A stretch of DNA of 64,000 nucleotides from the NCBI RefSeq assembly GCF_009914755.1, contig NC_060940.1. One strand, given 5' to 3'. Below, piece by piece: positions 42,199 through 45,600 of the stretch (the stretch's first letter is position 1; each line of letters starts with the position of its first letter). Under the pieces are notes generated by a model that was given only the letters and a program-made list of their open reading frames with translations, was not told the DNA's origin and ran no database searches. The translations under genes and the position numbers were made by a program. This DNA comes from the human T2T-CHM13v2.0 reference genome, Homo sapiens.

Positions 42199-42780
42199 TA
42201 ATGTGAGTGATCTTTAACACTGAGCACTTGAAAAAGAAAACCCTGAAGAAACCTAATTCTTTGATGTCTGGACGACAAGGAAGAAGATAGAAATGGCATC
42301 AGATAATAAACAGTGTAAATGTTTATCAGAAAGAGGCTGGTGGTCGGGACAAGTAGGAGGATCGCTTGAGTCCAGGAGTGCATCTCTACAAAAAAGTTAA
42401 AGGATTTTTTAACATTGGCCAGGCGTGGTGGCACACATCATCTGTGATCCCAGCTACTTGGGAGGCTGGGGCAGGAGGATTGCTTGAAGCCCAGGAGGTT
42501 GAGGCTGCAGTGAGCTGTGATCGAGCCACTGCACTCCAGCCTGGGTGACACAGCAAAATCCAGTCTCAAAAAAAATAATAATAATATTTTACATAACCAA
42601 CCACTTCTAAAGATTAAAAAAAAACCCCTATGATTAAAAACCTCAGGTCCCTCAGGCAATCATACCAGATATCGAAACAAAGCAATAACATAAGGACTGC
42701 AGTATTTATTTTATTTTTATATTATTTATTTATTCTTTGTTAGTTTTTGGAGTGTGGGTTTTGTTTTGTTTTTTGAATTT

Positions 42781-42806
42781 TTTATTTTGTTCTACTCGGT
42801 TTTATT
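42781..42806 (-). terminator. AATAAA polyadenylation signals of the NPIPB gene
   Basis: tttatt at 42801-42806 and 42781-42786, 35-60 nt after the stop codon. Confidence 0.65.
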
Positions 42807-42840
42807 CTTATTGCTCAGGCTTGAGTGCACTGGCCTCTTC

Positions 42841-45600
42841 TCAGCTCAACCTCCGCCTCTTGGGTTCGGGTAATGATGGTTCCACGTCAGCGGCCCTCCG
42901 CCTCTTGGGTTTGCGTGACGGTTCCACGTCACCGACCCTCCGCCTCTTGGGTTCGGGTGATGATGGTTCCACGTCAGCGGCCCTCCGCCTCTTGGGTTTG
43001 CGTGACGGTTCCACATCACCGACCCTCCGCCTCTTGGGTTCGGGTGATGATGGTTCCACGTCAGCGGCCCTCCGCCTCTTGGGTTTGCGTGACGGTTCCA
43101 CGTCACCGACCCTCCGCCTCTTGGGTTCGGGAGGTGGTTCCATCTCAGCCGCCCTCTGCCTCTTGGGTTTGCGTGGTTTTTCTGCCTCAGCCTCCTGAGT
43201 AGCTAAGGGAGGTGTCTTGAGATTATCATCGGCTGAGGGTGGAAGCGGCCCCCGCAGACGCTCGGCAGGTGTCTTGATATTATCATCTGCTGAGGGTGGA
43301 GCTGAGGGTGGAAGGGGAGTGAGCTGACGCTCGGAAGGTGTCTTGAGATTATCATCCGCTGAGGGTGGAAGCGGCCCCCGCAGACGCTCGGCAGGTGTCT
43401 TGATATTATCATCTGCTGAGGGTGGAGCTGAGGGTGGAAGGGGAGTGAGCTGACGCTCGGAAGGTGTCTTGAGATTATCATCCGCTGAGGGTGGAAGCGG
43501 CCCCCGCAGACGCTCGGCAGGTGTCTTGATATTATCATCTGCTGAGGGTGGAGCTGAGGGTGGAAGGGGAGTGAGCTGACGCTCGGAAGGTGTCTTGAGA
43601 TTATCATCCGCTGAGGGTGGAAGCGGCCCCCGCAGACGCTCCCCGCAGACGCTCGGCAGGTGTCTTGATATTATCATCTGCTGAGGGTGGAGCTGAGGGT
43701 GGAAAGGGAGTGAGCTGACGCTCGGAAGGTGTCTTGAGATTATCATCCGCTGAGGGTGGAAGCGGCCCCCGCAGACGCTCGGCAGGTGTCTTGATATTAT
43801 CATCTGCTGAGGGTGGAGCTGAGGGTGGAAGGGGAGTGAGCTGACGCTCGGAAGGTGTCTTGAGATTATCATCTGCTGAGGGTGGAAGCGGCCCCCGCAG
43901 ACGCTCGGCAGGTGTCTTGATATTATCATCTGCTGAGGGTGGAGCTGAGGGTGGAAGGGGAGTGAGCTGACGCTCGGAAGGTGTCTTGAGATTATCATCC
44001 GCTGAGGGTGGAAGCGGCCCCCGCAGACGCTCGGCAGGTGTCTTGATATTATCATCTGCTGAGGGTGGAGCTGAGGGTGGAAGGGGAGTGAGCTGACGCT
44101 CGGAAGGTGTCTTGAGATTATCATCTGCTGAGGGTGGAAGCGGCCCCCGCAGACGCTCGGCAGGTGTCTTGATATTATCATCTGCTGAGGGTGGAGCTGA
44201 GGGTGGAAGGGGAGTGAGCTGACGCTCGGAAGGTGTCTTGAGATTATCATCCGCTCAGGGTGGAAGCGGCCCCCGCAGACGCTCGGCAGGTGTCTTGATA
44301 TTATCATCTGCTGAGGGTGGAGCTGAGGGTGGAAGGGGAGTGAGCTGACGCTCGGAAGGTGTCTTGAGATTATCATCGGCTGATGGTGGAAGCGGAATCC
44401 GCAGACGCTCAGCAGGTATCTTGATATTATCATCTGCTGAGGGTGGAGCTGAGGGTGGAAGGGGAGTGAGCTGACGCTCGGAAGGTGTCTTGAGATCATC
44501 CGCTGAGGGTGGAAGGCAGGTGTCTTGATATTATCATCTGCTGAGGGTGGAGCTGAGGGTGGAAGGGGAGTGAGCTGACGCTCGGAAGGTGTCTTGAGAT
44601 TATCATCCGCTGAGGGTGGAAGCGGCCCCCGCAGACGCTCGGCAGGTGTCTTGATATTATCATCTGCTGAGGGTGGAAGGGCAGTGAGCTGACGCTCGGA
44701 AGGTGTCTTGAGATTATCATCCGCTGAGGGTGGAAGCGGCCCCCGCAGACGCTCGGCAGGTGTCTTGATATTATCATCTGCTGAGGGTGGAGCTGAGGGT
44801 GGAAGGGGAGTGAGCTGACGCTCGGAAGGTGTCTTGAGATTATCATCCGCTGAGGGTGGAAGCGGCCCCCGCAGACGCTCAGCAGGTGTCTTGATATTAT
44901 CATCTGCTGAGGGTGGAGCTGAGGGTGGAAGGGGAGTGAGCTGACGCTCGGAAGGTGTCTTGAGATTATCATCCGCTGAGGGTGGAAGCGGCCCCCGCAG
45001 ACGCTCGGCAGGTGTCTTGATATTATCATCTGCTGAGGGTGGAGCTGAGGGTGGAAGGGGAGTGAGCTGACGCTCGGAAGGTGTCTTGAGATTATCATCC
45101 GCTGAGGGTGGAAGGGGATGGAGCAGACACTCGGCACGTGTCTTGAGATTATCATCCGCTGAGGGTGGAGCTGAGGGTAGAGCTGAGGGTGGAAGGGGAG
45201 TGAGCAGACACTCGGGAGGTGTCTTGAGATTATCATCCGCTGAGGGTGGAAGGGGAGTGAGCAGACACTCAGGAGGTGTCTTGAGATTATCATCCGCTGA
45301 GGGTGGAAGGGGAGTGAGCACACACTCGGGAGGTGTCTTGAGATTATCATCCGCTGAGGGTGGAAGGGGAGTGAGCACACACTCGGGAGGTGTCTTGAGA
45401 TTATCATCCGCTGAGGGTGGAAGGGGAGTGAGCAGACACTCGGGAGGTGTCTTGAGGCTCAGGGAGTTATCAGTTATAGAATGTTGTTGAGTTGGAGGAG
45501 GTGGCTGGTGGCCCATCCTGTTTTTTAAAGTTTCAGCTGTGAGGTAGGGCCAGTAGGGCAATCCTGAAGAATGACGATGCTCCGCTGCCGCCATTCTGAC
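42841..45600 (-). CDS. NPIPB5: NPIPB last coding exon (919 codons + stop), VNTR-encoded proline-rich tail
   Basis: ggccctacag acceptor, then [36 protein letters not shown]...SADDNLKTP repeats...[12 protein letters not shown] 42841..45630. Paralog assigned from adjacency to OTOAP1, so the family is more certain than the paralog number. Confidence 0.88.
42845..43175 (-). repeat. Coding VNTR 2: 87-nt (45+42) unit, [29 protein letters not shown]
   Basis: Eight copies of ctc(c/t)gcctcttgggt on plus strand. Confidence 0.95.
43205..45455 (-). repeat. Coding VNTR 1: 57-nt units grading into a 126-nt (69+57) higher-order repeat
   Basis: Recurrent gtgtcttgagattatcatccgctgagggtggaag; peptide periods of 19, 23 and 42 aa. 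Confidence 0.97.

What the first reader, a model, noticed from the sequence alone, without database searches (positions are those of the whole stretch)
42745..43204. NPIPB C-terminal PKRRR repeat, stop codon and poly(A) signal appear to be an exonised, internally amplified Alu right arm
Seen on minus: AGCTACTCAGGAGGCTGAGGCAGAAAAACCACGCAAACCCAAGAGGCAGAGG at entry, against Alu AGCTACTCGGGAGGCTGAGGCAGGAGAATCGCTTGAACCCGGGAGGCGGAGG. The peptide ATQEAEA is the classic Alu translation. At exit, GAACCCAAGAGGCGGAGGTTGAGCTGAGAAGAGGCCAGTGCACTCAAGCCTGAGCAATAAGAATAAAAC plus an A-rich tail matches the Alu 3' end. Between them, the 42-45-nt Alu segment AACCC..GAGGCGGAGG..TGA..GAACC is repeated eight times, encoding [KE]PKR[RQ]R, which resembles a classical monopartite NLS. 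Inference: a sense-strand Alu supplied a copy-number-tunable multi-NLS array, the stop codon and AATAAA, i.e. a de novo protein module made from a SINE.
Basis: partly seen in the sequence, partly recalled or inferred. Interest (0 to 1): 0.8.

Follow-up and report, generated by a model that had tools for sequence, protein, structure and literature searches.

The report
Alu-derived repeat tail of NPIPB
The last 120 or so codons, the stop codon and the 3' end of this NPIPB-type gene copy are built from the right half of an Alu element, with a 42-base piece multiplied eight times; this is real but has already been published.

Summary
On the minus strand, window 43206-42713 is a sense-oriented Alu right arm plus its A-rich tail. 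With seven of the eight repeat units removed, it aligns in one colinear hit to an Alu profile built from the window's own Alus (model 165-295, E 9.5e-20).

A 42-nt Alu piece (model about 177-219) is present as eight in-frame units, 43194-42850. Each unit encodes ...[KE]PKR[RQ]R.

Paralogs in the same genome carry 1, 3, 4, 6 or 8 units.

- PMC7419210: partial AluY in exon 8.
- bioRxiv 10.1101/116087: the PKRRR motif in 8 copies, predicted NLSs, and a C-terminus needed for nuclear localisation.

- The stop codon is not the Alu's own. Two deletions and one CpG change created it.
- The AATAAA that fits the annotated transcript end is at 42710-42705, not 42806-42801.
- NLS function was not tested here.

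One point may be new. The Alu looks like a resident element of PLA2G10 intron 3. A full-length copy with target-site duplications survives at chr16:14.72 Mb. It appears to have been fused to the NPIP repeat array at a duplication junction rather than inserted into the exon.

The parts
43207..45636 (-). Upstream part of the NPIPB last-exon ORF. It holds 126-nt [13 protein letters not shown] repeats and their frame-shifted [10 protein letters not shown] form. The last partial unit ends ...GATGATAATCTCAAGACACCTCC at the junction with the Alu.
   Evidence: ORF 42841..45636. TRF period 126. Pfam PF20885 NPB13-l_MII_rpt, E 6.2e-189.
43195..43206 (-). Point where the sequence enters the Alu right arm (model about 165-176, ..TTAGCTACTCAG). 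The same junction string occurs in all 20 Alu-bearing NPIP loci examined.
   Evidence: nhmmer alignments. Junction present in 20 of 20 loci L001-L020.
42850..43194 (-). Eight in-frame units of 42, 42, 42, 45, 42, 45, 42 and 45 nt, each a copy of Alu model about 177-219. They encode [28 protein letters not shown], then alternating [14 protein letters not shown] and AADVEPS[SL]PEPKRRR. Units 3-8 form an 87-nt higher-order repeat.
   Evidence: The 6-unit paralog L008 is exactly 87 nt shorter.
42841..42843 (-). Stop codon TGA (TTG AGC TGA) inside Alu-aligned sequence, created secondarily.
   Evidence: A 5-nt gap relative to the Alu profile. Paralog comparison.
42790..42849 (-). Remainder of the Alu right-arm body (model about 220-283). 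It is 3' UTR in this class of copies.
   Evidence: alignment.
42713..42789 (-). Long, degenerate A-rich tail of the Alu, carrying four AATAAA hexamers that begin within this part (42786, 42734, 42730, 42715), the last running to 42710.
   Evidence: Homologous tail in the full-length progenitor L021.
42699..42712 (-). Putative 3' target-site duplication of the Alu (AAAATAAATACTGC). It contains the AATAAA at 42710-42705, 19 nt upstream of the annotated transcript end at 42686.
   Evidence: TSD inferred from L021. Hexamer positions. Transcript end from the annotation supplied with the finding.
41631..41771 (+). PLA2G10 exon-3-like pseudo-exon (Pfam PF00068 positions 38-85, one TGA inside). It shows that the flank downstream of the Alu is PLA2G10 intron 3 and exon 3 sequence.
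   Evidence: G000:C16:21679631-21679771. It overlaps the annotated lncRNA exon 41642-41748.

Best explanation
Window 43206-42713 (minus strand) is the 3' part of one sense-oriented Alu: right arm from about position 165, then the A-rich tail. It forms the end of the last exon of an NPIPB3/13-type gene copy.

Shown here:
- A 42-nt stretch of the Alu (about positions 177-219, GAGGCTGAGG...CCCGGGAGGCGGAGG) was duplicated head to tail, in frame.
- In this class of copies the array then grew as an 87-nt double unit to eight units.
- Each unit ends in [KE]PKR[RQ]R. This is the Alu frame EPGRRR with GGG>AAG.
- The ORF stops at a TGA made inside the Alu by a 1-nt and a 4-nt deletion plus a CpG transition.

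Inferred:
- The transcript probably ends about 19 nt after an AATAAA at the far end of the Alu tail, inside its target-site duplication.
- The Alu did not retrotranspose into the exon. It is a resident full-length Alu of PLA2G10 intron 3, and a segmental-duplication junction joined the NPIP coding repeat to its position about 165.

Inferred and not tested here: the eight KRRR/KRQR motifs act as classical nuclear (or nucleolar) import signals.

At this locus the gene is annotated as a transcribed pseudogene. However, the Alu-derived tail is 100% identical to that of six other copies in the genome.
For: Alu identity and colinearity: (collapsed sequence, one hit, model 165-295, E 9.5e-20; shuffle maximum 2.0 bits).

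A natural unamplified state exists. L019 and L020 carry one unit and give a single hit at model 165-295, E 2e-21.

Unit mapping to model 176/177-219/222 in the 3- and 4-unit paralogs.

Unit counts across the 20 loci: 8 units in 7, 6 in 1, 4 in 8, 3 in 2, 1 in 2. Several of the length differences between classes are exact unit lengths: 42 (4 vs 3 units), 87 (8 vs 6) and 126 (4 vs 1) nt.

Consensus frame [23 protein letters not shown].

Origin of the Alu:
- L021 (chr16:14,724,354-14,724,660) holds a full-length Alu (model 1-304, E 4.9e-95) in the same place and orientation relative to the same flank. One search gives 94.0% identity over 1703 nt that include part of the Alu. One search gives 95.8% over about 1400 nt of flank alone.
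- L021 is the nearest Alu to the NPIP fragment: 87 of 103 positions, against at best 75 of 95 among 43 window Alus.
- It shares CCCAAGAGG, which 0 of 43 window Alus carry.
- Its 14-mer 5' flank AAAATAAATACCAC recurs with one mismatch exactly where the A-rich tail ends. In controls, 0 of 43 other Alu downstream regions matched it with 2 or fewer mismatches. 2 of 43 foreign 5' 14-mers matched L021's downstream region with 1 or fewer mismatches. Overall cross-control: 67 of 1806.
- L021's upstream sequence is single-copy in the genome.
- L021 lies between the PLA2-domain exon hits at 14,710,193 and 14,725,671. That is the only chr16 locus that also has the last-exon hit.
- No NPIP repeat remnant lies downstream of the tail: 0 hits for two unit motifs in 42700-36400.

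Literature:
- PMC6924539 reports the Alu-derived repeat and peptide evidence for NPIPB6 (passages).
- bioRxiv 10.1101/116087 reports the motif, at least four predicted NLSs, and a C-terminus needed for nuclear localisation (passages).
Against: - The inner units taken alone score near noise in this window (2.3-5.5 bits). Their Alu origin rests on tandem continuity and on the less diverged paralogs.
- The published account calls this a partial AluY insertion in exon 8 (PMC7419210). That differs from my junction reading.
- The target-site duplication is A/T-rich, and the controls give a false-positive rate of 0-5%, not zero.
- No non-human primate sequence could be examined, so the order of events is inferred from one human genome.
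- The flank is mosaic. The window and L001 are identical across 43300-42500 and then differ at 4-5%, so trees built from the flank are of limited value.
- The transcript end at 42686 comes from a predicted model. No 3'-end data were seen.
- NLS: only a pattern match (8 of 8 units fit K[KR]x[KR]). The preprint could not clone the full C-terminal repeat, so the array itself has not been tested.
- The Alu subfamily (AluY in the papers) was not tested. L021 differs from the window consensus at 43 of 283 positions, which does not look young.
Confidence: 0.8

Rival explanations
1. This is the published reading. A 5'-truncated AluY retrotransposed directly into a carboxy-terminal repeat unit of NPIP exon 8 and was then amplified. 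On this view the full-length Alu at chr16:14.72 Mb is a secondary Alu-Alu recombinant.
For: [quoted passage not shown] The Alu starts abruptly at about position 165, as 5'-truncated insertions do.
Against: - No target-site duplication and no continuation of the NPIP repeat follow the tail.
- The tail runs straight into PLA2G10 intron 3 and exon 3 sequence.
- The same element exists full length, with a 13-of-14 target-site duplication, at a TT|AAAA site in the authentic PLA2G10 intron. Its upstream sequence is single-copy. The TT|AAAA consensus for L1 endonuclease is recalled, not taken from a call.
- The left and right halves of that Alu are about equally diverged, 26 of 165 against 17 of 118 positions. 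This gives no sign of a chimera, though it is a weak test.
Confidence: 0.15
2. The PKRRR array has no import function. It is a neutral by-product of repeat instability in a fast-evolving, largely disordered tail. Alternatively it serves another role, such as nucleolar retention, nucleic-acid binding or acting as an auto-antigen.
For: - The basic motif pre-existed in the non-coding Alu (L021 reads EPKRWR in the same frame).
- The window and L001 (and likewise L005) show no difference from about 43300 to 42500, then 4-5% beyond. All seven 8-unit copies are 100% identical over 42690-43260. This fits homogenisation rather than selection on each unit.
- The chr18 copy has a premature stop.
- The preprint reports human auto-antibodies to the NPIPB C-terminus. 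One NPIPB construct was cytoplasmic.
Against: - The frame is kept through every unit-number difference seen. The 4-vs-3, 8-vs-6 and 4-vs-1 unit classes differ by exactly 42, 87 and 126 nt, all multiples of 3.
- 8 of 8 units fit the classical monopartite pattern (the pattern itself is recalled).
- The preprint finds NPIPB nuclear and the C-terminal region important for that localisation.
Confidence: 0.4
3. The resemblance to Alu is a chance product of a GC-rich coding repeat.
For: Inner units score only 2.3-5.5 bits individually.
Against: The entry, the exit and the collapsed sequence score 26-56 bits, against a maximum of 2.0 bits in 500 shuffles. A single-unit paralog aligns at E 2e-21 and a full-length progenitor at E 4.9e-95.
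Confidence: 0.01

Closest known systems
Published description of the NPIPB C-terminus (Martinez-Gomez et al. 2019, PMC6924539; Cantsilieris et al. 2020, PMC7419210; Bekpen et al. 2017 preprint, 10.1101/116087)
   Same: It is the same object. [quoted passage not shown] They give the motif (P/R)(K/E)PKRRR(AA/VG)DVEP in 8 copies. They predict NLSs in the C-terminal region (passages).
   Different: In the passages I read, the papers do not give any of the following:
- the unit's Alu coordinates;
- the 1/3/4/6/8 series of paralogs;
- the way the stop codon arose;
- the link to the resident Alu of PLA2G10 intron 3.

They call the event an insertion.
Classical Alu exonisation (an antisense Alu recruited as a cassette exon through new splice sites). 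Recalled general knowledge; no paper on it was read here.
   Same: A SINE contributes coding sequence to a primate-specific protein isoform.
   Different: Here the Alu is in sense orientation and no new splice site is involved. It extends the last exon after a DNA-level fusion, and a piece of it was then tandemly amplified.
Other genes with an Alu in the main coding isoform that alters the C-terminus (TTF1, ZNF101; Table 1 of PMC6924539)
   Same: An Alu adds C-terminal residues and/or the stop codon to the principal isoform (passage).
   Different: Those Alus are listed as single contributions. In NPIPB a piece of the Alu became a multi-copy protein repeat.
Segmental-duplication junctions in Alus, and the join of the NPIP 3' end to PLA2G10 intron 3 (Damert 2022, PMC9132208)
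   Same: That paper states that circularisation joins the NPIP 3' end to PLA2G10 intron 3. It places PLA2G10 exons 3 and 2 at the NPIP 3' end (passages). I see the same layout.
   Different: In the passages read, the paper describes this for the NPIPB founder and does not say the junction lies in an Alu that became coding. Here all 8 NPIPA-type copies examined carry the same PLA2G10-derived flank, and the 7 fetched have a PLA2G10 exon-3-like hit inside the fetched stretch; L024's nearest hit lies 1,059 nt below its match, the same spacing.

Membership tests
Alu SINE (right arm plus tail) | Significant colinear alignment to an Alu consensus or profile | tested here: met
   The collapsed sequence hits model 165-295 at E 9.5e-20. 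The profile was built from 52 Alus of the window. No Dfam consensus was available.
Alu SINE (right arm plus tail) | A-rich tail following the body | tested here: met
   42789-42713 is A-rich and homologous to the tail of the full-length copy L021.
Alu SINE (right arm plus tail) | Full dimeric element flanked by target-site duplications | tested here: met
   Not at this locus, where the element is truncated at about position 165. It is met in the paralogous progenitor L021: model 1-304 and a 13-of-14 target-site duplication.
Alu SINE (right arm plus tail) | Subfamily assignment (AluY according to the papers) | not testable with these tools
   No subfamily consensus sequences were available. L021 differs from the window consensus at 43 of 283 positions.
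Splice-mediated Alu exonisation | Antisense Alu providing new splice sites for a cassette exon (definition recalled) | tested here: not met
   The Alu is in sense orientation and continuous with the last exon's ORF, with no intron in between.
Classical monopartite NLS | Sequence pattern K-(K/R)-x-(K/R) (pattern recalled) | tested here: met
   Eight matches in the 121-aa Alu-derived tail, one per unit.
Classical monopartite NLS | Importin-alpha binding and sufficiency for nuclear import | not testable with these tools
   Only indirect published data exist. NLSs are predicted and the C-terminal region is needed for nuclear localisation, but the full repeat was never cloned.
NPIPB (nuclear pore complex-interacting protein, B type) | MII-type frame-shifted repeat plus the PKRRR tail in the last exon | tested here: met
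   Pfam PF20885, E 6.2e-189. The tail is 100% identical over 571 nt to six other genomic copies. The annotation calls this locus a B13-like transcribed pseudogene.

The most novel reading that the evidence does not exclude
The Alu that encodes the NPIPB tail was never inserted into the NPIP exon. It is a resident full-length Alu of PLA2G10 intron 3, still intact with its target-site duplications at chr16:14.72 Mb. A duplication junction in an African-ape ancestor fused the NPIP coding repeat to its right arm, turning a neighbouring gene's intronic SINE into protein.

A corollary follows. The NPIPA-type stop codon and 3' end lie in the last 45 or so nt of the same Alu's tail. The NPIPA 3' end would therefore be a deletion derivative of the Alu-bearing (B-type) junction, the reverse of the published order for this part of the gene.
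Probability: 0.55. Interest if true: 0.4.

Novelty: already known. Interest (0 to 1): 0.22.

Why it matters
NPIP is one of the fastest-evolving gene families of apes and sits on the core duplicon that drives chr16 rearrangements. Its B-type C-terminus is a clear case of a SINE fragment becoming a multi-copy protein repeat that carries basic, NLS-like motifs. That case is already documented, so the finding adds little.

- the exact Alu piece that was amplified;
- a natural 1/3/4/6/8 copy-number series within one genome;
- the way the stop codon arose;
- evidence that the Alu was captured at a duplication junction with PLA2G10 intron 3.

If confirmed in other primates, the last point would link the mechanics of segmental duplication directly to the birth of a protein module.

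Tried and rejected
- Rfam at gathering thresholds found nothing in the window. Alus are not scored there, so this says nothing either way.
- My first Alu profile (38 copies) lacked the first 20 or so nt of the element. The model coordinates and the target-site-duplication control are therefore invalid. Both were redone with a corrected profile.
- The flank tree (29 rows) places the NPIPA flanks with the L009, 8-unit and 6-unit copies (support 100/97) when rooted on L021. I do not rest the order of events on it, for two reasons. The flank is mosaic. In the proximal 300 nt only two substitution columns support the same grouping.
- Testing for a chimeric L021 Alu by comparing the divergence of its two halves gave no signal: 26 of 165 against 17 of 118. 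This is a weak test.
- Two literature searches for a direct test of the PKRRR array as an NLS found none beyond the preprint. PMC10102026 reports only that NPIPB11 was hard to over-express.
- A search for PLA2G10 + NPIP + Alu returned 2 papers. In the passages read, neither places the junction in the coding Alu.
- No structure or complex prediction was run. The tail is a low-complexity basic repeat, and no eukaryotic importin reference is offered.
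Full report
**1. What is in the sequence**

On the minus strand, the last exon of the annotated NPIPB13-like transcribed pseudogene carries one open frame of 931 codons, 42841..45636. Most of it is the known 126-nt NPIP repeat in two reading frames ([13 protein letters not shown] and [10 protein letters not shown]). 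TRF finds period 126, and Pfam PF20885 matches at E 6.2e-189.

At 43207/43206 the repeat breaks off in mid-unit (...GATGATAATCTCAAGACACCTCC). From 43194 to 42850 there are eight in-frame units of 42, 42, 42, 45, 42, 45, 42 and 45 nt. TRF sees them as period 42 x 7.5 and period 87 x 3.8. The stop TGA is at 42843-42841. An A-rich stretch runs down to about 42699.

**2. Is it Alu?**

No external Alu consensus could be used, so I built a profile from the window's own copies. A seed repeat gave 144 HSPs in the window. My first profile (38 copies) lacked the first 20 or so nt of the element, which I noticed. I rebuilt it from 52 copies (314 positions). The coordinates are therefore offset, and I do not use them.

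With the corrected profile:
- The entry maps to model 166-244 (26.4 bits, E 2.4e-9).
- The exit maps to model 180-299 (36.1 bits, E 2.6e-12).
- Three inner hits map to model 177/182-221/227, at only 2.3-5.5 bits.
- Of 500 shuffles of the 701-nt query, 18 gave any hit, and the best scored 2.0 bits.

Removing units 2-8 gives one colinear hit at model 165-295, 56.2 bits, E 9.5e-20.

In the NPIPB frame the consensus reads [23 protein letters not shown]. ATQEAEA and EPKRRR are therefore the Alu frame with a few substitutions.

**3. Paralogs give the unamplified state**

The assembly holding the window could be searched. Twenty loci carry the same junction string:

| Units | Loci |
|---|---|
| 8 | 7 (L001-L007; L006 is the window itself; all 100% identical over 571 nt) |
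| 6 | 1 (L008) |
| 4 | 8 (L009, L010-12, L013-15, and L016 on chr18) |
| 3 | 2 (L017, L018) |
| 1 | 2 (L019, L020; chr16:75.8 and 76.0 Mb) |

- Entry-to-flank lengths are 504, 417, 337/338, 295 and 211 nt. The 8- and 6-unit classes differ by 87 nt, the 4- and 3-unit classes by 42 nt, and the 4- and 1-unit classes by 126 nt, so each of these steps is in frame.
- The single-unit copy aligns to the Alu profile in one piece (model 165-295, E 2e-21).
- In the 3- and 4-unit copies the units are less diverged and map to model 176/177-219/222.
- The amplified piece is therefore GAGGCTGAGGCAGGAGAATCGCTTGAACCCGGGAGGCGGAGG of the consensus.
- Growth from 6 to 8 units was by the 87-nt double unit.

**4. 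Stop codon and poly(A) signal**

Comparing the copies shows three changes:
- All NPIP-attached Alus lack one base of TTGCAG. This takes the Alu's own in-frame stop out of frame. That stop is still used in the progenitor frame, which reads ...RLQ-stop.
- Only the 8- and 6-unit copies have a further 4-nt deletion. It brings a TGA into frame.
- That TGA comes from GCCGAG>GCTGAG, a CpG transition.

The other classes read on. Some end ...LSKLRTRHCTQAWAIRINP-stop. Where that stop is lost, the frame runs into the A tail (...WVEKKKKIKKQNKTHAPKTN). The chr18 copy has an early stop.

Six AATAAA hexamers lie between 42806 and 42705. The last, 42710-42705, is 19 nt from it. The end comes from a predicted model, and I saw no 3'-end data.

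**5. Where the Alu came from**

One further locus, L021 (chr16:14.72 Mb), has no NPIP sequence within the 10 kb upstream. Yet it shares the flank downstream of the Alu. Identity is 94.0% over 1703 nt that include part of the Alu, and 95.8% over about 1400 nt of flank alone. L021 carries a full-length sense Alu in the same place (model 1-304, E 4.9e-95).

It is the same element:
- It is the nearest Alu to the NPIP fragment, at 87 of 103 positions, against at best 75 of 95 for 43 window Alus.
- It shares CCCAAGAGG, which 0 of 43 window Alus carry.
- It shares the peculiar tail.

Its 5' flank is CTT|AAAAATAAATACCAC. The 14-mer next to the Alu recurs with one mismatch exactly where the A-rich tail meets unique sequence. 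Controls:
- Own-flank matches with 1 or fewer mismatches were found for 13 of 43 window Alus.
- Cross matches occurred in 67 of 1806 comparisons.
- The L021 14-mer matched 0 of 43 foreign downstream regions with 2 or fewer mismatches.
- 2 of 43 foreign 14-mers matched L021's downstream region with 1 or fewer mismatches.

The sequence upstream of L021's Alus is single-copy in the genome.

Pfam PF00068 hits place L021 between the phospholipase-A2 exon hits at 14,710,193 and 14,725,671 on the minus strand. This is the only chr16 locus that also has the last-exon hit, so it is the authentic PLA2G10. By the numbering of PMC9132208 this is intron 3.

Every NPIP copy examined has the exon-3-like hit about 1 kb downstream of its 3' end; this holds for the A-type copies as well. 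In the window it lies at 41631-41771 on the plus strand. No NPIP repeat remnant follows the tail.

I conclude that a duplication junction joined the NPIP coding repeat to position about 165 of a resident intronic Alu. [quoted passage not shown] PMC7419210 calls the event a partial AluY insertion. A search for PLA2G10 + NPIP + Alu returned only these two papers. In the passages I read, neither connects the junction to the coding Alu.

**6. NPIPA**

All 8 A-type copies examined share one junction...GATGATAATCT[CG]AAGA|AACTAA[CGT]GAAGAATAAATAA. It lacks the Alu body but keeps the last 45 or so nt of what is Alu tail in L021, and the TAA stop lies there.

If the target-site duplication is real, the A-type 3' end also descends from an Alu-bearing junction. 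The most economical route is a deletion. Supporting evidence:
- The flank tree nests NPIPA with L009 and the 8- and 6-unit copies (support 100/97, rooted on L021).
- Two substitution columns in the proximal 300 nt agree with that grouping.

However, the flank is mosaic. The window and L001 are identical from about 43300 to 42500 and then differ at 4-5%. No other primate could be examined. I hold this at about even odds.

**7. Function**

Each unit ends in KRRR or KRQR, giving eight matches to K[KR]x[KR]. The classical NLS pattern is recalled knowledge.

The preprint 10.1101/116087 (passages) reports the following:
- It predicts at least four NLSs in the middle and at the C-terminal region of NPIPB.
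- It finds one partial NPIPB construct nuclear and another cytoplasmic.
- It concludes that the C-terminal part is needed for nuclear localisation.
- The full repeat could not be cloned, so the array itself remains untested.

PMC6924539 reports peptides for all three Alu regions of NPIPB6.

The lysine codon (GGG>AAG) was already present in the intronic progenitor.

The NPIP-attached fragment is more diverged from the consensus than the progenitor over the same positions: 25 of 103 against 17 of 118. These are small numbers.

**8. Verdict**

The substance was published between 2017 and 2020. The corrections (unit phase, origin of the stop codon, which AATAAA is used) and the paralog series are refinements. 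The capture of a PLA2G10 intronic Alu at a duplication junction is the only part that may be new, and it needs other primate genomes to confirm.

Noticed in passing
window 41631-41771 (+): A PLA2G10 exon-3-like pseudo-exon (PF00068 positions 38-85, one TGA inside) lies about 1 kb downstream of the NPIPB 3' end. It overlaps the annotated exon 41642-41748 of lncRNA LOC105371131. The same hit accompanies every NPIP copy found on chr16 and chr18.
   Followed up: partly
window about 42500 (boundary); compared with L001, L005, L008: In one search the window and L001 (likewise L005) show no difference from about 43300 down to about 42500, then differ at 4-5 per 100 nt. L008 shows the same step at about 42500; apart from its missing 87-nt unit it differs at only a couple of positions over that stretch. 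This is a sharp gene-conversion or recombination boundary next to an Alu fragment at 42411-42584. L004 and L007 stay nearly identical to the window throughout the flank.
   Followed up: partly
L024, L034-L040 (eight NPIPA-type copies on chr16:14.7-18.4 Mb): The NPIPA ORF ends ...DDNLKKL[RTM]KNK-stop. Its last codons and its TAA lie in sequence that is Alu tail at the PLA2G10 locus. The last AATAAA is mutated to AATGAA in all 8 copies.
   Followed up: partly
L013-L015, L018, L020: Five copies have lost the ...AIRINP / ...AIRRNL stop. They read on into the Alu A tail, adding a lysine-rich end (WVEKKKKIKKQNKTH[AT]PKTN or WVEQKKKIKKQNKTHTPKTN).
   Followed up: no
window 42841-45636 (-): One 931-codon frame stays open through the whole last exon although the repeat array switches twice between the [13 protein letters not shown] and [10 protein letters not shown] readings of the same 126-nt unit. 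The frame-switch origin of the MII motif is described in the preprint.
   Followed up: no
window, whole: 70 Alu hits at E <= 1e-10 in 64 kb, 43 of them full length. The Rfam gathering-threshold scan reports none of them.
   Followed up: no
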